Shown piece by piece: positions 56,132 to 64,000 of a stretch of DNA of 64,000 nucleotides. The notes under the pieces were generated by a model. It saw only the letters and a program-made list of their open reading frames with translations, was not told where the DNA came from and made no database searches. This DNA is from Promethearchaeota archaeon (lineage in GTDB: Archaea; Asgardarchaeota; Lokiarchaeia; Sigyniarchaeales; SOKP01): contig SHMW01000003.1 of assembly GCA_008080735.1 (NCBI GenBank), positions 60,571 through 124,570 of the forward strand, written 5' to 3'. Each line of letters opens with the position of its first letter. Within the stretch, counting starts at the first letter, position 1. Both the position numbers and the translations under genes were made by a program.

Positions 56132-58639
56132 TTATAGCTCAACTAAATTTATCGTATATCCTCGTTCTAATTGACTTTTAGAAATATTATTCAGTTGCTT
56201 TTCATTAAGAACAATATTTATAGTACTATTGGGGATTTCTCTGGCTTTTATTAGTATTTTATTTTTCTCTTTTATCTTCTTTAGGTTAATTTTTATGATG
56301 TGTTTATTGAGTATAAAATCTTCGATCTGAATTCCACATATACCCCATAGTTTCTTGAATTTATAATCAATAAAAATATCTCCAAAATGTTTTTTCGTGT
56401 ATGCTGTTGCCATTGCGGCAGTACCTACACCCCAATCAAACATAACATATCCAGGCACTCGGAAATCAATGCCGCTATGACCATAATTTTCACATACACA
56501 CCCTCTATCCACCCCATCTAGCGTTTCTATTCCCTCCAAATTACCAGAACAAATTTCCTCATATTCAGTAAGCAATTGAAGTGCCCATGATGCTCTTAAG
56601 GCTGCTATCCCTCGTTCCATATATTCTTCCTTACCAGTTTCAAGATAATATTCCATGTATGTTCTGACAAAAAGAGCTTGTCTCGCATCGCTAAGTTCGG
56701 CATCTGCATTTTGGACTCCGAAACCTCCAAAGGTGTTGAAACTTATATACGGCATATCCCAGACTTGTTGGAACAGAGAAAGAATTGAAAGAATATGTTC
56801 ACCAATTTCGAGATATTTATATTCTTTGGTAATAGTATATAGTTCCTTAAAACCTTCGGCGCACCAATAAATACATAGCGTATTCATTACATGATTGTCT
56901 GTGTAAAAATCATAGAAATTAAGTGGTAATCGCGTACATGAATAAAAGGGTTCAAAATCGTGCCATTTATTTTCTGATAAAATATCATTTTCGAGGAAGG
57001 TGGCGATTCTTTCAGCAATTGTCAGGATCTCTTCATTTTTAGTTATTTTAAATAATTCCATCAAAAACATCAAAGTTGCCCCCGAACTTGCTGAATTTAA
57101 AAGATCTTCATTTATCATCATTTTGTTATCCTTGGTCAGCTTTATATAAGTTGGAATGGCGCCATTTTCTAATTGGATTGCTTTTATAAACTCTTTTAAT
57201 TGATTTGATTTTCTAATAATTAAATTATTATTCTCAAAATCATGGTTTAATTTAAGGGCCCAGTACATTGCTAAACAAGAATCAACTACATGGTATTCAT
57301 CCGTAAACATAAATGCTTTTACTCCGTTGATAAAAGAAAATTCATCTGCATTATTTTTTGCGGGCAATATTATGCTAGGAAGAAGTCCTTTGTTTCTGGG
57401 CAGTTGGAGTAGAGTATTTAAAATTTTGTTTGCCTTCTTAGTTAGTTTATCATTATGCCAATAATGTCCGAAGAACATAAGCCCATAAGCTGTTCGAATG
57501 TTTAAAAACCATGCATTATTCCACACTTCCGCAACTCTACGCACTATAGGGTGATGACGTGTGACCTTATCAAAAAGCTTAATCCACCGTGGAGAAGAAG
57601 AAAGCGTATTTATAATCTTACCTAAAAATGAAGTCGTCCCCGCGATCTCTTTCATTCTTTTCTTGCTATGCTTTTCTAAATCATCTGGTGTAATATATTC
57701 CATGGGGCTTTTGGCTTTTCCCATCCAACTTCGTTGCCATATCCCCCCACATTCCACACCATTCATAAAAAACTCACCCCAATACTCATGTCGCTCAAAA
57801 ATTGCTTTAAAACCCTCTTCTACATTTATTTGATATGGAAGGATTTGAGGTATTAGACTATTATTTAGATAATTTGTACCGTATTTATTCCAAAACCATT
57901 TATTAGTATCTTGTATTATTTCTTGACGGGATTTATTATTGTACATTTTGAGGTAGTATCCGAAAGCTACAGTTCTTGCTTTTTTAAGTTTGATTTTGTC
58001 TCTTCTTTTATGTTTAAAAAATACGTGATCAATTGGTTTTGATTTACCGAAACCATAAGAAATATATGCAAGATTTTTATGGCTTTTTATAACATTTAGA
58101 TTTAAAAACTTAGGAAATTGTCGATCTTTTGCAAGGATATCGAGGTCGGGATAAAGAGCGAAAGCGATATCATTTTTCTTATAAATTATTACCGGAGATC
58201 GAAAAACATGGTCCGAAATTACATAATCTTTTTCAGGTCTTAAATGAGGAACCCAAATAAAATCAGCTTTACCATCCAATAGAATTTGATAGATTGCTTG
58301 AATTCCAGAAAATTTCTGATTATCTTTCCTTGGATTAATTTTATATTCAAAATGAATTATATCTGTATCGATATAGCGAATTTTTAACCCAATCTTATTA
58401 GTTTTTTCTGTGAAAAATATCGCTTCATTCTTGTCGATTTTATTCAATTTTAATGGAACAGAAGATTTTGACCATCGTTTTGAAAAAATCAACGTCGAGT
58501 AATTTTTTACACTTCCGAGAATTGGGACCCAATTACTTTTGATTTTAATCTCAAGTTTCTCAGATAACAAATCTTCAGTTTCTATCCAAGATACTCGAAT
58601 TGTATTAGTTCCTAAAAATTTTCTAGAAATTTCTCTCAC
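56132..58639 (-). CDS. Large hypothetical protein, probable alpha/alpha-toroid (glycoside hydrolase/epimerase-like) C-terminal domain
   Basis: 835-aa ORF with helical repeats ELY.ITK...YL..GE, Y..TG..EY.ERG.AAL and Q.ENG motifs. Confidence 0.6.
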   Translation of the reverse strand: MREISRKFLGTNTIRVSWIETEDLLSEKLEIKIKSNWVPILGSVKNYSTLIFSKRWSKSSVPLKLNKIDKNEAIFFTEKTNKIGLKIRYIDTDIIHFEYKINPRKDNQKFSGIQAIYQILLDGKADFIWVPHLRPEKDYVISDHVFRSPVIIYKKNDIAFALYPDLDILAKDRQFPKFLNLNVIKSHKNLAYISYGFGKSKPIDHVFFKHKRRDKIKLKKARTVAFGYYLKMYNNKSRQEIIQDTNKWFWNKYGTNYLNNSLIPQILPYQINVEEGFKAIFERHEYWGEFFMNGVECGGIWQRSWMGKAKSPMEYITPDDLEKHSKKRMKEIAGTTSFLGKIINTLSSSPRWIKLFDKVTRHHPIVRRVAEVWNNAWFLNIRTAYGLMFFGHYWHNDKLTKKANKILNTLLQLPRNKGLLPSIILPAKNNADEFSFINGVKAFMFTDEYHVVDSCLAMYWALKLNHDFENNNLIIRKSNQLKEFIKAIQLENGAIPTYIKLTKDNKMMINEDLLNSASSGATLMFLMELFKITKNEEILTIAERIATFLENDILSENKWHDFEPFYSCTRLPLNFYDFYTDNHVMNTLCIYWCAEGFKELYTITKEYKYLEIGEHILSILSLFQQVWDMPYISFNTFGGFGVQNADAELSDARQALFVRTYMEYYLETGKEEYMERGIAALRASWALQLLTEYEEICSGNLEGIETLDGVDRGCVCENYGHSGIDFRVPGYVMFDWGVGTAAMATAYTKKHFGDIFIDYKFKKLWGICGIQIEDFILNKHIIKINLKKIKEKNKILIKAREIPNSTINIVLNEKQLNNISKSQLERGYTINLVEL

Positions 58640-58743: not shown

Positions 58744-60114
58744 TTATATTTTGAGAGGATAGCCCGCAGCTTTCCAAGCTTTCATACTTCCAAGGGTGGT
58801 ATAAACTTCTTTAAACCCATTATTTACCAAAATACTAGATCCAAGACTTGCGCGTGCTCCATTTCCACAATAAGTCGCAATTGGTTTCTCTTTGTCTAAC
58901 TCATCAAGCTTTTCTTCCAAATACCCAATATAGATATGTGTTGAACCTTCAATATATCCTTCCTCCCTCTCAGATAAAGTTCGCACATCTAATATGGTCA
59001 TTTCTATGTTGTTATCCATCTTTTTTTTTAATTGATGGACAGTAATTAAATTAATTGCTTCAATTGGGAAACTTGCACTGTACCAACCTATAATACCTCC
59101 AACTAAGTATCCTTTTATATCATCATATCCGATTCTTAACAAAGATTTATGAGCATCGTTTAGATGAGCAAAATCTTTAACAACCAAATAAATTGGTTCG
59201 TCATAGGGGATGGTCCATCCTACGAATGACGGGAGTCCATCCAACCAAATATTATATGAACCTTTAATATGAGCACTACCAAAATCGTTAGGATTCCGAG
59301 TATCTAAAATTACCCCTCTTTCCTCAATCTTTTGCTTAAATTCTCCCGGTAAGAAAGATTTAAATCGAGGTATTGTTTTAAGCAGAGGGGGTCCTTCTAA
59401 ATTGTATTTCTCCATACGTTGAAAATAAGGTGAATAATAATGATTCTCTGATTTCTTTATTTCTATGAATTCATCTTTAATTACATATTGAAGATCTGGA
59501 TTCTGTTTACGTTCAAGACCGATGGTACTATGCTCTCTTTCACTGATCCCCGCACCACAGACGGAACCAGCACCATGTGCGGGACAAATAATTGCTTGAT
59601 CACCTAACGGAATAAGTTTGTTAAATATACTATCATATAGGTTTCCCGCTAATCGATCTTCCTCTTCAGGACCATACATATCAATGCGTCCTGTATCTCC
59701 AACAAATAGAGTATCACCAGTAAATACCAATACCGCATTATCCCCTGAAGTTTTATCAAAAATCGCATAGGATGTACTTTCATCAGTATGCCCGGGAGTA
59801 TGGATTGCTCGTATTGTGAGATCACCTACATGAAATTCCTGTCCGTCTTTTATCGTATTCCCATATTTCCAATCAAGTCCAGGTCCATGATAAATTTCTA
59901 AATCGACATTATCGGCAATTTCTAAGGACCCAATAACGTAATCTTCATTTCTATGAGTTTCAAAAATATATTTAATTTCAACCTGATTCTCAAATGCTTT
60001 TTTAAGATATATTTTCGCATCCCTTCGAGGATCTATGACACACGACTCATTTCCAGATGCTAAAAAATAGGATATATGAGCTAAACCCTCGCTTTTTATT
60101 CGTTTTAAAATCAT
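58744..60114 (-). CDS. MBL-fold hydrolase with two rhodanese domains (persulfide dioxygenase-sulfurtransferase-like)
   Basis: ETHRNEDY, TPGHT, FTGDTLF, PAHGAGSVCG, LDVR...E..G.I.G, YCGNGAR. Confidence 0.9.
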   Translation of the reverse strand: MILKRIKSEGLAHISYFLASGNESCVIDPRRDAKIYLKKAFENQVEIKYIFETHRNEDYVIGSLEIADNVDLEIYHGPGLDWKYGNTIKDGQEFHVGDLTIRAIHTPGHTDESTSYAIFDKTSGDNAVLVFTGDTLFVGDTGRIDMYGPEEEDRLAGNLYDSIFNKLIPLGDQAIICPAHGAGSVCGAGISEREHSTIGLERKQNPDLQYVIKDEFIEIKKSENHYYSPYFQRMEKYNLEGPPLLKTIPRFKSFLPGEFKQKIEERGVILDTRNPNDFGSAHIKGSYNIWLDGLPSFVGWTIPYDEPIYLVVKDFAHLNDAHKSLLRIGYDDIKGYLVGGIIGWYSASFPIEAINLITVHQLKKKMDNNIEMTILDVRTLSEREEGYIEGSTHIYIGYLEEKLDELDKEKPIATYCGNGARASLGSSILVNNGFKEVYTTLGSMKAWKAAGYPLKI

Positions 60115-60265: not shown

Positions 60266-60511
60266 TTATCTTAAATCTCTTTCGGGATTTAAATCTACTC
60301 TTGTAAAAATGTCTTCTATCTGTTCTATTGTTATCAGATCTTCTTCAACCATCTGCCTAACAAGTTTATATGCTCCACATTCATATTCTTTCTCCCAATA
60401 TTCTTGATCTTCCGCATAGAAATTACATTTATGGCATACAGTATTAATTAATTCTCGATTTAAAGGAGAAATATCCTCTTCCGTTCTTAAGATCTTATGT
60501 TTTTTTCCCAT
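60266..60511 (-). CDS. Small Cys-containing protein downstream of the radical SAM gene
   Basis: 81 aa; CHKCNFY...ECGAY; GGTCA RBS-like sequence upstream. Confidence 0.7.
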   Translation of the reverse strand: MGKKHKILRTEEDISPLNRELINTVCHKCNFYAEDQEYWEKEYECGAYKLVRQMVEEDLITIEQIEDIFTRVDLNPERDLR

Positions 60512-60569
60512 TTTTGTGACCTATTTTCATATCTTATTATTATATAATACTTTAAAGTAATATTTTATG

Positions 60570-61874
60570 TTAATCTTTCACCTTTCCAAACTGGTAGCAT
60601 TTATATGAATCAACCCCATAAATATTTCCAGTATGATGTTTAGCACGAAAACGACATCCACCTCTGCAATCATCTAAATATTCACATTCGATTTCAGCAC
60701 ATTCTAATGCGTGAATAGACCAATTGAGATTTTTTTGAACCATTTCCCAACTCTTTTTTAATCCTAGTTTAAATACATTACCAAGGGGTTCGTCGAAAAA
60801 AGTAAACCCACACTTACTTATATTTCCTAAGACATCCACAGCCATCAAATAAGGACCACAAGAATAGTCTACCTTTTCTCCCTCTGAAGGTGTGTCATAA
60901 ATTACACCCCATCCGTAATTTTTTAATATCTTACCCCCTTCTTCATAGGAAATTTCATATTTTTGTTTTATTTCTTCAGGAATATCCTTGTCAAAAGTTG
61001 GGATATCAATAGACCAGTTTTTTATCTCTCCCAAATCCGTGATAAGCTGATATAAATCTCCAAATTCATCAATATTTTGTTTATGAATCATTGTATTTAT
61101 TGATACACTTATATCTCGGTCTAACAAGGCTTTAATTCCTTTAATTGTTTCTTCGAAGCAACCGGCATTTCTAAAATCATTATGAGTTTGTTCCAATCCA
61201 TCCACGCTTACATAAACCTCAACATAATTTTTTTCAAGTAGATTAAAAATATAATCATCCGTATCATTAATTAACACTCCGTTTGTTAAAATCACTTTCT
61301 GGAGGGGTATTTCTATTAATATATCCAATAATTGTTCGAGTTGAGAGTATAAGAAAGGTTCTCCACCAGTCAATATGACCCGAATTCCTTGAAGGGAATC
61401 AAATTCCTCAATGAGTTCTATAATATCTTCTAGAGGCATGTCAACTTTATTCTTTTCTGTTATATAACAATGTTTACACGTTAGATTGCATCGTTCTGTG
61501 ATGTTTATCATTAAGTTTTTGAGATAAGGAGGATCAAATGGATTTTGAATTGGTAAATCATGATGTTTCAAAGATTTTATAGTGTTATCTGTTATTTCAG
61601 TATTAGCAAGCTTTATAATACCTAATTTATCAAATTGTTCGATCCCTTCACGCACTTCATCTTGTTTTCTTTTGGGAAACTTTTCTATTATCTGCTGAAC
61701 AGTTCGAAGACCATCAGCATATTTTAATAATGTATACGCTTCCTGGTCGATGATATATGATTCTTCATTCCTTAGATCGTAAATATCATATTCCCTATAT
61801 TTTCTGAGAACGATATTTGGAGGGAGATACGGATATGAGGTAAGATTCATACTTACGATCGGACTTAAGAGCAT
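60570..61874 (-). CDS. Radical SAM/SPASM enzyme with N-terminal PqqD-like (RRE) domain
   Basis: N-terminal ...YDLRNEESYIIDQEAYTLLKYADGLRTVQQII; CNLTCKHC; TGGEP; SVDG; SPASM C...GNISKC...C..ECEYLDDCRGGC...KC. Confidence 0.88.
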   Translation of the reverse strand: MLLSPIVSMNLTSYPYLPPNIVLRKYREYDIYDLRNEESYIIDQEAYTLLKYADGLRTVQQIIEKFPKRKQDEVREGIEQFDKLGIIKLANTEITDNTIKSLKHHDLPIQNPFDPPYLKNLMINITERCNLTCKHCYITEKNKVDMPLEDIIELIEEFDSLQGIRVILTGGEPFLYSQLEQLLDILIEIPLQKVILTNGVLINDTDDYIFNLLEKNYVEVYVSVDGLEQTHNDFRNAGCFEETIKGIKALLDRDISVSINTMIHKQNIDEFGDLYQLITDLGEIKNWSIDIPTFDKDIPEEIKQKYEISYEEGGKILKNYGWGVIYDTPSEGEKVDYSCGPYLMAVDVLGNISKCGFTFFDEPLGNVFKLGLKKSWEMVQKNLNWSIHALECAEIECEYLDDCRGGCRFRAKHHTGNIYGVDSYKCYQFGKVKD

Positions 61875-61907
61875 AAAAAATTTCTTGTAATATTATAAAA
61901 AAACAAC

Positions 61908-61961
61908 TTAAGCATAGCCATAATCAAGAAAGAGATAATATCTATCACTTTCATATCCCAT
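61908..61961 (-). CDS. Candidate Tyr-rich RiPP precursor peptide (17 aa); not in the ORF track
   Basis: MGYESDRYYLFLDYGYA-TAA, 33 nt upstream of the radical SAM gene on the same strand. Confidence 0.4.
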   Translation of the reverse strand: MGYESDRYYLFLDYGYA

Positions 61962-62046
61962 TTTTTGTTTTTTCAATCCTTTTATTTGTTAAATACACGC
62001 TCTCTAAGTACTTCTTGAATTTATATTAAGTGAATGTATAGAGTTT

Positions 62047-62545
62047 TTGAACTACCAGCCCCTAAAGGAGCGGGATTCTTGCTTCCTTGACTACCGCACC
62101 TAAATGGTGTCTTACACGATCTCCAAAAGCGTAACTTCCCGTAATCTCTACGGTAGGTCATGAAATGAGGGGGATACCTCTTTCCTCTAAGAGGCATATT
62201 CCCTCTTTCTCAATATTAGTAGAAGCATTCTTATCTCGGTGATGATGTGTGCCATATTCGATTTATACCACTTTCCCTCAAAATTATCTGCTAGGTCAAG
62301 AACCCTTGCTTTTAGAGCTTCACTCCTCTTGGTCTCTTTTATGCACACGGGTTGATGGTATTTTCCTATAACGATTAGGTGATAGATGAGAGAATAGACT
62401 CTATAGGGCTCTTTTCGATATTCCATTATGTAATTATTACCTTAGATTGGATAAAAAAGGTATACTTGCTTGAGTTTGTCATTTTTACACACATTTATTC
62501 ATGCCCTAAAGGACATGGCTTTCTGTGAAAAATGCTAGATTTATA
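62047..62545 (-). mobile_element. tnpA: Non-autonomous IS200/IS605-family remnant (left end, degenerate tnpA, tnpB 3'-end/omega-RNA-like region, right end)
   Basis: Subterminal hairpins CATGTCCTTTAGGGCATG (left) and GCTCCTTTAGGGGC (right, ending ...GGTAGTTCAA); tnpA-like VYSLIYHLIVIGKY; ACGGGAAGTTACGC...GAAGCAAGAATCCC typical of IS605 right-end regions. Confidence 0.8.
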
Positions 62546-62639
62546 AAAGGGAAAAAAATATTTGAGAATAAATATTTATTTATATACAGAGCATATTGAT
62601 ATTGAATTTTATAGAGAGATATGAAATGGGTGAATTTTC

Positions 62640-63632
62640 ATGCGAAAATTAGCTTCGATACAAAAAATTAGAAAAATTGAACCGATTCCAAATGCTGATA
62701 GGTTGGAATTGGCCCATATATTAGGTTGGAAAGTGGTCATAAAGAAAGGAGAATTTAAAGAGGGAGATCTTGTCGTCTATATAGAGGTTGATAGTGTATT
62801 ACCCGAACGACCCGAATTCGAATTCCTAAGTGATTATGGTTTCCGAATTCGTACAGTCAAATTAAGAGGTCAAATATCTCAAGGAATTGCTTTTCCATTA
62901 TCTATCCTTCCCAGAGATAAAGAATATTCCGTAGGAGAAGATGTCACAGAAGTCTTGGGGATAACTAAATATGAACCACCTATTCCAATCCAACTTTCGG
63001 GAGAGACCAAGGGACCATTTCCTCAATTCATTCCAAAAACAGATGAAGTGCGAATTCAAACAATACCTGATATATTAGAGAAATATAATGGAGAATCTTG
63101 TTATATTACTGAAAAAGTCGATGGGACCAGCAGCACATATTATTTAAAGGATAATGAATTTGGTGTATGCTCTCGGAACCAAAACTTAGAAGAAAGTGAA
63201 ACAAACCTCTTTTGGATTTTAGCCAATGAAATGGAAATTGAGGATAGACTACGAAAATTTGGAAAAAATATCGCAATTCAAGGTGAAGTACTCGGTCCAA
63301 AGGTGCAAAATAATAAATACAAGTTAGATCATCATGAGCTATTTATATTTAGTATTTTTGATATTGATTCTCAAAATTATATTCAATTTGAAGAATTTAA
63401 AGTACTTTCAGAACGTTTAGGTTTTGAAACTGTTCCAATTTTGGAAGAAAATTATAACTTAGACGACACAGTGGATAAATTGGTGGACATGGCAGAAGGA
63501 AAAAGCAGTTTGAATTCCCAAATCCCGAGAGAAGGAATTATAATACGAAGTAAGCGAGAAATTAATGACCCCGAATACGGAAGATTGAGTTTTAAAGTCC
63601 TTAATCCTTCATTTCTACTTGAGTTTGAATAA
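62640..63632 (+). CDS. ATP-dependent RNA ligase, DRB0094/Rnl5 family
   Basis: MRKLASIQ...ADRLELA N-terminal OB domain, KTDE.RIQ, TEKVDG (motif I), CSRN, QGE, F.IF, EGII, SFKV. Confidence 0.92.
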   Translation: MRKLASIQKIRKIEPIPNADRLELAHILGWKVVIKKGEFKEGDLVVYIEVDSVLPERPEFEFLSDYGFRIRTVKLRGQISQGIAFPLSILPRDKEYSVGEDVTEVLGITKYEPPIPIQLSGETKGPFPQFIPKTDEVRIQTIPDILEKYNGESCYITEKVDGTSSTYYLKDNEFGVCSRNQNLEESETNLFWILANEMEIEDRLRKFGKNIAIQGEVLGPKVQNNKYKLDHHELFIFSIFDIDSQNYIQFEEFKVLSERLGFETVPILEENYNLDDTVDKLVDMAEGKSSLNSQIPREGIIIRSKREINDPEYGRLSFKVLNPSFLLEFE

Positions 63633-63722: not shown

Positions 63723-64000
63723 ATGAATGGAATTAATATTGATGAACTATTAGAAATTCTCCCAAAATTGATTCGGGAAAACGACAGAGTAAAAGGAGCA
63801 ATAATTTCTGCTCTATCCGGAGTGGTTGCTACCCATGAAGATATAGTACAATTAACAAAAGAAATGGACAAGCGCTTCGAGACCATGCAGCAGACAATGG
63901 ATCAACGCTTCGAGAAGATGGACAAGCGCTTCGAGACTATGCAGCAGACAATGGATCAACGCTTCGAGAAGATGGACAAACGCTTTGAGACAATGCAGCA
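63723..64000 (+). CDS. Coiled-coil repeat protein (DUF3782/DUF1626-like archaeal family), 5' part only
   Basis: MNGINIDELLEILPKLIRENDRVKGAIISALSGVVATHEDIVQLTKEMDKRFETMQQTMDQRFEK...; runs off the window edge. Confidence 0.75.
   Translation, partial: MNGINIDELLEILPKLIRENDRVKGAIISALSGVVATHEDIVQLTKEMDKRFETMQQTMDQRFEKMDKRFETMQQTMDQRFEKMDKRFETMQ
63864..64000 (+). repeat. In-frame 54-bp tandem repeat (at least 2.5 copies)
   Basis: Units start at 63864, 63918 and 63972, each encoding MDKRFETMQQTMDQRFEK; near-identical at DNA level. Confidence 0.95.

What the first reader, a model, noticed from the sequence alone, without database searches (positions are those of the whole stretch)
60266..61961. Candidate Asgard RiPP system: Tyr-rich micro-peptide + RRE-radical SAM/SPASM maturase + small Cys protein
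Seen: three co-oriented ORFs. The first is an unannotated 17-codon ORF, MGYESDRYYLFLDYGYA (5 Tyr and 1 Phe; 61908-61961), ending 33 nt before the second, a radical SAM gene with a PqqD-like N-terminus and a full SPASM Cys set. The third is an 81-aa CxxC...C protein. Established: RRE-bearing rSAM/SPASM enzymes typically modify short peptides encoded next to them, often cross-linking aromatic residues (PqqE, streptide StrB, triceptide cyclophane synthases). Inference: this is a minimal archaeal aromatic cross-linking peptide pathway. The peptide is unusually short for leader plus core, and the 81-aa protein could be the real substrate or an accessory factor.
Basis: partly seen in the sequence, partly recalled or inferred. 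Interest (0 to 1): 0.8.

Follow-up and report, generated by a model that had tools for sequence, protein, structure and literature searches.

The report
Radical-SAM peptide enzyme; wrong peptide proposed
The radical-SAM enzyme and its small three-cysteine partner are real and belong to an undescribed peptide-modifying system shared by Asgard archaea and anaerobic bacteria, but the tyrosine-rich mini-gene beside them is a chance reading frame; the likely substrate is a cysteine-rich peptide encoded elsewhere in this genome.

Summary
All three ORFs exist at the stated coordinates. The enzyme is a confident RRE + radical SAM + seven-Cys SPASM protein, closest in fold to SuiB, SkfB, anSME and CteB. 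The 81-aa CxxC...C protein follows it in 32 of 32 close orthologous loci.

- It has no relative in 117 orthologous loci or elsewhere in this genome.
- It lies upstream of the promoter boxes conserved among orthologues.
- An ORF of that length arises in 46% of shuffles of the spacer.

What travels with the enzyme instead is a short peptide: a fixed 13-residue Lys-rich leader, then one or three CKCxxxC cores that usually end the peptide.
- It is present in 73 of 117 orthologous loci, against 1 of 66 control rSAM loci.
- In 71 genomes of this family, all 20 with the peptide have the enzyme, and none of the 48 without the enzyme has it.
- This genome encodes it on another contig (C75:5335-5454).

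The 81-aa protein is a confidently modelled four-helix fold with no PDB match. In some bacteria it is fused to the enzyme's N-terminus, so it is more likely a helper than a substrate.

This scan already found the same three-part system on other DNA, including the C75 peptide. No curated family or paper describes it.

The parts
61908..61961 (-). Judged a chance ORF and not part of the system.
   Evidence: It has no tblastn relative in 117 orthologous loci or in the own genome. None of the 24 other Asgard-clade loci with at least 200 nt of upstream DNA has a comparable Tyr-rich sORF; the only other hit is an unrelated 13-aa ORF in L122. Shuffles of the spacer give an ORF this long 46% of the time. 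Same-genus upstream DNA is alike only from the promoter boxes onward.
61873..61900 (-). Conserved promoter-like A/T boxes of the rSAM gene: box 1 with a TAATATTA palindrome core (61888-61900) and box 2, ATTTTTTAT-like (61873-61882). Box 2 overlaps the ATG at 61874.
   Evidence: Both boxes recur at the same distance from the conserved MNL start in orthologues of 47-69% protein identity. The micro-ORF stop (61908-61910) lies upstream of both boxes.
60570..61850 (-). RRE + radical SAM + SPASM enzyme. The likely true start is Met9 at 61850; the ORF is open to 61874. In 434-aa numbering: RRE-like domain about residues 14-90 (61605-61835), rSAM core about 117-330 (60885-61526), SPASM 339-426 (60597-60860).
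   Evidence: Pfam Radical_SAM 1.9e-25. Only sub-threshold NCBIfam hits to SPASM maturases. Invariant Cys set. AF2 model pLDDT 90.6. Best structural matches SuiB, SkfB, anSME, ChlB and CteB.
60266..60511 (-). 81-aa three-Cys helical protein (invariant C26, C29, F31; nearly invariant Y32, C45, A47). It is the conserved partner of the enzyme and most likely a helper subunit.
   Evidence: It lies directly downstream in 32 of 32 close-clade loci and is adjacent in 59 of 85 distant loci. It is 64-85% identical where the enzyme is 48-69%. It is fused, as two tandem domains, to the enzyme's N-terminus in P0105, P0107, P0109 and P0110. AF2 gives four helices, pLDDT 89.6. No Pfam or NCBIfam family and no PDB fold match.
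62046..62534 (.). About 490-bp repeated element inserted some 170 nt upstream of the rSAM gene. It contains a 79-aa ORF whose start weakly resembles an IS200-type Y1 transposase, plus a GC-rich stretch. It is not part of the system but explains the unusual upstream DNA.
   Evidence: blastn finds full or partial copies on about 16 other contigs of the own genome at 78-93% identity. Weak Pfam Y1_Tnp hit, E 0.064. No significant Rfam match.

Best explanation
The window carries two of the three parts of a conserved peptide-modification system: the RRE-radical SAM/SPASM enzyme and its small three-Cys helical partner. The Tyr-rich micro-ORF is a chance ORF upstream of the enzyme's promoter.

The likely substrate is a short peptide with a fixed 13-residue Lys-rich leader (M-x-I-[KR]-K-[VKI]-x-K-[KR]...) and one or three CKCxxxC cores that usually end the peptide. 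In this genome it is the 39-aa gene at C75:5335-5454 (L113:5335-5454:-), unlinked to the enzyme.

Inferred mechanism:
- The RRE binds the basic leader.
- The rSAM site abstracts a hydrogen atom from the core.
- The two SPASM clusters assist formation of intramolecular cross-links involving the Cys thiols (sacti- or ranthi-type thioethers are the closest precedent).
- The three-Cys helper docks on the enzyme's N-terminal side, where it is fused in some bacteria. There it presents the peptide or holds a metal or cluster.

Shown: the anatomy, the conservation, the co-occurrence and the fold. Inferred: which protein is the substrate, the chemistry, and the helper's role.
For: Enzyme architecture.

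Micro-ORF not conserved and no more than chance.

Helper protein always adjacent, and fused in some homologues.

CKC peptide:
- Found independently by motif scan in Asgard, Nitrospirota, Actinomycetota, Dehalococcoidia, Geobacteraceae, Methanobacteriota and Geoglobus loci.
- Present in 73 of 117 orthologous loci against 1 of 66 control rSAM loci.
- Among 50 distinct peptides, 46 have exactly 13 residues before the first Cys and 45 end in Cys.

Genome-level co-occurrence in the same 71 genomes of this family: 23 have the enzyme and 20 have the peptide. All 20 with the peptide have the enzyme; none of the 48 without the enzyme has the peptide. The two agree within genera (in g1, enzyme in 3 of 6 and peptide in 2 of 6; in g4, 1 of 5 for each).

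The own genome has exactly one such peptide gene, on C75.
Against: No modification has been observed; everything rests on comparative genomics.

In this genome the peptide gene is on another contig, so the link is by co-occurrence only.

Three enzyme-positive genomes gave no peptide match (G186, 97% complete; G117, 89%; G168, 90%). 44 of 117 loci show no peptide within the fetched flanks.

The helper's invariant Cys and aromatic residues would also suit a substrate.

No protease or exporter is conserved nearby, which is unlike many secreted RiPPs.

Related genomes are not independent, so the co-occurrence table overstates the significance.
Confidence: 0.7

Rival explanations
1. One reading: the 17-aa Tyr-rich peptide is the precursor, and the enzyme makes aromatic C-C or C-O cross-links in it, as in streptide, triceptides or PQQ.
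For: The ORF exists on the same strand just upstream. Only 6 of the 349 short ATG ORFs in the window have at least 5 Tyr. The best structural match, SuiB, is an aromatic cross-linker.
Against: There is no homologue upstream of any orthologue or anywhere in the genome. The DNA is not conserved even within the genus, whereas the adjacent promoter boxes are. The ORF lies upstream of those boxes. ORFs of this length are expected by chance. NCBIfam models for cyclophane and other aromatic cross-linking maturases score far below their cut-offs (AmcB 61.8 against 425; WgkB 87.8 against 650).
Confidence: 0.03
2. The 81-aa three-Cys protein is itself the substrate: a small protein cross-linked by the enzyme, as QhpC is by QhpD or CrpA by CrpC. 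The CKC peptide would then be a second substrate or unrelated.
For: It is always adjacent in the Asgard clade and more conserved than the enzyme. Its invariant residues are Cys and neighbouring aromatics. Tandem copies occur in distant loci, as precursors often do. There is a precedent for protein substrates of archaeal SPASM enzymes (PMC13692751).
Against: It is fused to the enzyme's own N-terminus in several bacteria. It is predicted as a compact, confident four-helix fold and not a leader-plus-core peptide. A separate peptide with a leader/core layout co-occurs with the enzyme.
Confidence: 0.15
3. The pair does not modify a peptide at all. It would build or repair a cofactor or metal centre (in the manner of NirJ/AhbD or NifB), with a repurposed RRE-like domain and the three-Cys protein as scaffold. 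The CKC peptide would be a separately regulated metal-binding peptide that merely shares the same physiology.
For: The top NCBIfam hits are NirJ, AhbD and AhbC, though all are sub-threshold and cover the core only. No protease or exporter is conserved. The peptide genes carry a conserved upstream box that also occurs upstream of the only CbiM (Ni/Co uptake) gene of this genome, whereas the rSAM promoter lacks it.
Against: The leader-like part of the peptide has a fixed length and conserved positions from bacteria to Asgard archaea, as expected for RRE recognition. In bacteria the peptide gene abuts or overlaps the end of the rSAM gene. Presence and absence agree strictly. Full-length structural matches are to peptide maturases with RREs.
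Confidence: 0.1

Closest known systems
SCIFF/CteA with CteB (ranthipeptide; PDB 5WGG, 5WHY), and the sactipeptide maturases SkfB (6EFN) and AlbA
   Same: The enzyme architecture is RRE + rSAM + two-cluster SPASM. The likely substrate is a short peptide with a Cys-rich C-terminal core. The structural match is Z 23-24. AlbA's NCBIfam model aligns over residues 38-407.
   Different: Sequence scores are far below the family cut-offs (PapB 69 against 340, AlbA 68 against 850, StsB 77 against 625). The precursor is only 20 aa in most lineages, with a CKCxxxC core that usually ends the peptide. There is an obligatory-looking three-Cys helical partner with no counterpart in those systems. The cross-link type is unknown.
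SuiB/StrB (streptide Lys-Trp cross-link; PDB 5V1Q, 5V1S, 5V1T)
   Same: It is the best full-length structural match, including the N-terminal RRE (Z 24.8, model residues 15-432 against chain 2-439).
   Different: Sequence identity is 16-18%. No Trp- or Lys-Trp-type precursor is present; the conserved peptide has no aromatic residue in its core.
CrpA/CrpB-CrpC of Methanococcus voltae (TIGR04463; PMC13692751)
   Same: It is an archaeal RRE-rSAM-SPASM enzyme acting on a repetitive Cys-rich substrate, and extra N-terminal substrate contacts matter.
   Different: It is a different rSAM family. CrpA is a large protein with ten 17-residue repeats. No three-Cys helper is described there.
PqqE/PqqD/PqqA and MftC/MftB/MftA
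   Same: These are three-part systems of a tiny peptide, an rSAM/SPASM enzyme and a small accessory protein. Their products are used inside the cell and not exported.
   Different: In those systems the small protein is the RRE itself. Here the RRE is already part of the enzyme, and the small protein is an unrelated all-helical three-Cys fold. There is no Pfam PqqD hit. The MftC model scores 85.7 against a cut-off of 265.

Membership tests
RRE-dependent radical SAM/SPASM peptide maturases (architectural class) | CX3CX2C radical SAM cluster motif | tested here: met
   C129, C133 and C136 are invariant in 35 homologues. Pfam Radical_SAM 1.9e-25.
RRE-dependent radical SAM/SPASM peptide maturases (architectural class) | C-terminal SPASM domain with seven Cys for two auxiliary clusters | tested here: met
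   C339, C355, C392, C397, C403, C407 and C426 are invariant. The spacing of the central block is CX4CX5CX3C, against the usual CX2CX5CX3C. The fold matches SPASM enzymes.
RRE-dependent radical SAM/SPASM peptide maturases (architectural class) | N-terminal RRE (PqqD-like winged helix: three strands, then three helices) | tested here: met
   The AF2 model has strands at 14-42 and helices at 44-83 with pLDDT above 90. It aligns with SuiB and SkfB from their N-termini. At sequence level there is no Pfam PqqD hit at E<=0.1.
RRE-dependent radical SAM/SPASM peptide maturases (architectural class) | A conserved precursor peptide encoded with the enzyme | tested here: met
   This is not the micro-ORF. 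The CKC peptide is in 73 of 117 loci and co-occurs strictly with the enzyme at genome level. In this genome it is unlinked, on C75.
RRE-dependent radical SAM/SPASM peptide maturases (architectural class) | Enzyme-dependent modification of the peptide | not testable with these tools
   This needs co-expression and mass spectrometry.
Aromatic cross-linking maturases (StrB/SuiB, triceptide 3-CyFE, PqqE) | Conserved precursor with the aromatic acceptor motif next to the enzyme | tested here: not met
   No conserved Tyr- or Trp-containing sORF lies upstream or downstream of orthologues.
Aromatic cross-linking maturases (StrB/SuiB, triceptide 3-CyFE, PqqE) | Score above the curated family model cut-off | tested here: not met
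   AmcB scores 61.8 against 425 and WgkB 87.8 against 650. No PqqE or StrB model is among the best 25.
Sactipeptide/ranthipeptide maturases (AlbA, StsB, PapB, CteB) | Score above the curated family model cut-off | tested here: not met
   AlbA scores 67.6 against 850, StsB 76.9 against 625 and PapB 69.3 against 340.
Sactipeptide/ranthipeptide maturases (AlbA, StsB, PapB, CteB) | Cys-rich core peptide as substrate, with thioether product | tested here: inconclusive
   A Cys-rich core peptide is present. The bond type cannot be determined here.

The most novel reading that the evidence does not exclude
The enzyme, the three-Cys helper and the CKC peptide together make an intracellular, enzyme-cross-linked cysteine peptide that handles nickel or cobalt (a ribosomally made metal chaperone or metallophore). 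The helper would be a new kind of RiPP partner that delivers the peptide or a metal to the enzyme. The system would be ancient enough to be shared by Asgard archaea, other archaea and anaerobic bacteria.
Probability: 0.2. Interest if true: 0.8.

Novelty: new variant of a known kind. Interest (0 to 1): 0.55.

Why it matters
RRE-rSAM/SPASM systems are a main source of new peptide chemistry, but very few archaeal ones have been characterised, and I found no described Asgard system.

This family has three distinctive features:
- One of the shortest leader-plus-core precursors seen (20 aa in most lineages).
- A core of three cysteines that usually ends the peptide.
- A conserved helper fold with no structural relative.

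It occurs in uncultured anaerobes of both domains. If the link to Ni/Co uptake holds, it would be an enzyme-modified ribosomal peptide acting in metal handling in archaea.

For annotation, the practical lessons are that the enzyme's substrate can be unlinked, and that a short ORF in AT-rich DNA next to an rSAM gene is not evidence of a precursor.

Tried and rejected
The contig of the closest orthologue (P0002, 88% identical) could not be fetched, so the micro-ORF could not be compared at close range.
- The first metagenome scan, with the single protein, found nothing. The second, with alignment A3, gave 80 loci.
- The genome-contig scan returned mostly unrelated rSAM loci. L047-L112 were reused as controls.
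- Pfam and NCBIfam have no family for the helper or the peptide. One call failed because a query was too short.
- The protein-atlas search gave only unnamed clusters.
- For the helper, Foldseek against PDB gave nothing (best E 6) and VIA-align wide gave a best Z of 3.9. This is no evidence of a new fold, only of no match.
- Rfam found nothing significant in 61700-62800. An inverted-repeat scan of the repeat element found only A/T palindromes.
- A strict composite search (operator box + upstream half-site + TATA) found only the peptide gene itself. The CbiM promoter has a single box.
- All-against-all clustering of neighbouring ORFs found no further conserved gene: no protease, no exporter.
- Three literature searches found no description of this system.
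It was redone from files.
- Co-folding of enzyme, helper and peptide is not possible with the tools at hand.

Full report
**1. Observation.** ORF listing and direct reading confirm three co-oriented minus-strand ORFs:
- a 17-codon ATG ORF at 61908-61961 (22 codons from an upstream TTG), with five Tyr and one Phe;
- a 434-aa ORF at 60570-61874;
- an 81-aa ORF at 60266-60511.

Pfam finds only Radical_SAM and Fer4_12 in the large protein. NCBIfam gives many sub-threshold hits to SPASM enzymes and none near a curated cut-off; the best is NirJ at 99 bits against 515, and AlbA aligns over residues 38-407.

**2. The enzyme.** The protein search returned 224 homologues, of which the best 120 were listed.
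- About 90 of the listed proteins are 47-99% identical to the query; those that carry a source name are labelled Promethearchaeota, Lokiarchaeota or Hodarchaeota.
- A 30-36% clade follows.
- In an alignment of 35 homologues, CX3CX2C (C129, C133, C136) and seven C-terminal Cys are invariant, and an N-terminal block of about 100 residues is conserved.
- The AlphaFold model built on that alignment is confident (pLDDT 90.6). It shows four short strands and then three helices in residues 14-83, before the TIM-barrel-like core.
- Foldseek and VIA-align rank SuiB first (Z 24.8, rmsd 4.3, 382 residues aligned, model 15-432 against chain 2-439, that is, including SuiB's RRE). SkfB, anSME, ChlB and CteB follow.

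**3. The true start and the promoter.**
- Orthologues start at a conserved Met-Asn-Leu that corresponds to Met9 of the window ORF. The stored gene call is 426 aa (P0001).
- Upstream DNA of 22 loci, anchored on that start, shows two conserved A/T boxes at fixed distance: one with a TAATATTA core and one resembling ATTTTTTAT. In the window these are 61888-61900 and 61873-61882.
- The ATG at 61874 is the last part of the second box. In orthologue L010 the same ATG is followed by a stop codon.
- The boxes are therefore conserved as DNA and not as coding sequence, and the gene most likely starts at 61850.
- Which box is the TATA element is not settled.

**4. The micro-ORF.**
- Its stop codon (61908-61910) lies upstream of both boxes.
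- Same-genus loci (L009, L010, L114) resemble the window from the boxes onward and not before them.
- None of the orthologous loci has a related sORF.
- tblastn with the peptide against all 117 orthologous loci and against the own genome finds only the window copy. Among 25 Asgard-clade loci with at least 200 nt of upstream DNA, no other has a comparable Tyr-rich sORF.
- The window holds 349 ATG ORFs of 17-40 codons, 6 of them with at least five Tyr. Shuffles of the 171-nt spacer give an ORF of this length 46% of the time, and one with at least four Tyr 6% of the time.
- The stretch upstream (62046-62534) is a repeated element of about 490 bp, with full or partial copies on about 16 other contigs of the genome. 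So the micro-ORF sits in a short leftover spacer between an inserted repeat and the promoter.

I judge it a chance ORF.

**5. The 81-aa protein.**
- tblastn finds it directly downstream of the enzyme in every close orthologous locus, at 64-85% identity where the enzyme is 48-69%. Distant Asgard loci have two tandem copies.
- In the bacterial and euryarchaeal orthologues of the genome collection (L033-L046) that have it, it lies just upstream, sometimes as a two-domain protein of about 120 aa.
- In all, it is adjacent in 32 of 32 close-clade loci and 59 of 85 distant loci.
- Four longer bacterial homologues of the enzyme carry two such domains fused to their N-terminus.
- A profile search of 1.8 billion representative proteins finds only 79 clusters, with one or two domains and 47-154 aa.
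- Across the 50 sequences of alignment A4, C26, C29 and F31 are invariant, and Y32, C45 and A47 nearly so.
- The AlphaFold model is a confident four-helix fold (pLDDT 89.6). It has no PDB match and no Pfam or NCBIfam family.

A compact fold that is fused to the enzyme in some lineages points to a helper subunit more than to a substrate, but this is inference.

**6. The third component.**
- A motif scan of the fetched loci showed short ORFs with a Lys-rich start and C-terminal CKCxxxC cores near the enzyme gene in Asgard, Nitrospirota, Actinomycetota, Dehalococcoidia, Geobacteraceae, Methanobacteriota and Geoglobus loci. Unrelated rSAM loci lacked them.
- With a tolerant rule, 73 of 117 orthologous loci have one, against 1 of 66 control loci of similar total length.
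- In the bacterial and other distant loci the peptide is typically 20 aa, and its gene abuts or overlaps the end of the enzyme gene. In the close Asgard clade it has three cores (36-42 aa) and lies from 76 nt to several kb upstream.
- Of 50 distinct peptides, 46 have exactly 13 residues before the first Cys, with Ile at -11 and Lys at -9 and -6 nearly fixed. 45 end in Cys. This is the layout expected of a leader read by an RRE, followed by a core.

**7. This genome.**
- The window has no such peptide.
- The whole genome has exactly one, a 39-aa gene with three cores at C75:5335-5454, next to a winged-helix regulator (HTH_34, E 7e-27) and membrane proteins.
- In the same 71 genomes of the family, 23 have the enzyme and 20 have the peptide. 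All 20 with the peptide have the enzyme, and none of the 48 without the enzyme has the peptide. The agreement holds within genera that are polymorphic for the system.
- Related genomes are not independent, so this is strong support but not a formal test.

**8. Regulation lead.** Earlier notes of this scan said the peptide gene shares a control element with a Ni/Co importer. I checked part of this.
- Peptide genes of 13 loci share one to three boxes resembling TTTTCATAYTAT about 20 nt upstream of a TTTAAATA element.
- The only CbiM gene of this genome (C54) has one such box about 45 nt upstream of a TATA-like element.
- The strict box occurs 226 times in the genome, so a given 200-nt stretch holds one by chance about 0.5% of the time.
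- The rSAM promoter in the window lacks the box.

This is suggestive, not established.

**9. Comparison with known systems.**
- The enzyme belongs to the architectural class of RRE-rSAM/SPASM peptide maturases, but to none of the curated families.
- The Cys-rich core makes sactipeptide and ranthipeptide systems (CteB/SCIFF, SkfB, AlbA, PapB) the nearest functional analogues.
- SuiB is the nearest structure.
- CrpC/CrpA of Methanococcus voltae is the nearest archaeal precedent (PMC13692751).
- The three-part logic recalls PQQ and mycofactocin, but there the small protein is the RRE itself.
- Three literature searches found no description of this family. A survey of archaeal RiPPs mentions rSAM-type clusters in Asgard archaea only in passing (PMC12144867).

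**10. Verdict.**
- The window holds the enzyme and helper genes of an undescribed three-part system, whose peptide gene lies on another contig.
- This scan has already reported the same system on other DNA, including the C75 peptide of this genome. I reached the peptide independently before reading those notes.

Noticed in passing
window 62046-62534: A repeated element of about 490 bp, with full or partial copies on about 16 other contigs of the genome (78-93% identity). It carries a 79-aa ORF (62187-62426, minus strand) whose start weakly resembles an IS200-type Y1 transposase, and a GC-rich stretch (62021-62197) in an otherwise 34% GC window. It is probably a non-autonomous IS200/IS605-derived element. 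No significant Rfam match.
   Followed up: partly
L011 (about 215-338 nt upstream of the rSAM start), L012, L013: In one Lokiarchaeial genus, a conserved ORF of about 40 aa (basic N-terminus, ending in Gly-Cys, Gly-Val-Tyr or Gly-Tyr) lies between the CKC peptide gene and the rSAM gene.
   Followed up: no
L113 5664-6011 (G000:C75), next to the CKC peptide gene: A 115-aa winged-helix regulator (Pfam HTH_34, E 7e-27; weak ArsR-type hit) and two membrane proteins, one with a weak cytochrome b561-like hit, flank the peptide gene. The regulator is a candidate for the factor that reads the TTTTCATAYTAT boxes.
   Followed up: no
window 58744-60114 (-): A 456-aa metallo-beta-lactamase-fold protein with two rhodanese domains lies 151 nt downstream of the helper gene on the same strand. 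I read this as persulfide-dioxygenase-like from my own knowledge of such fusions. It is not conserved next to orthologues of the enzyme.
   Followed up: partly
window 56132-58639 (-): An 835-aa ORF with no Pfam match at E<=0.1.
   Followed up: no
window 62640-63632 (+) and 63723-63998 (+): An RNA ligase of the PHA02142 OB-fold + RNA_ligase type (E 2e-34 and 4e-30) is divergent from the rSAM gene. It is followed by an ORF running off the window with near-perfect tandem repeats of a 15-residue unit (motif MDKRFETMQQT).
   Followed up: no
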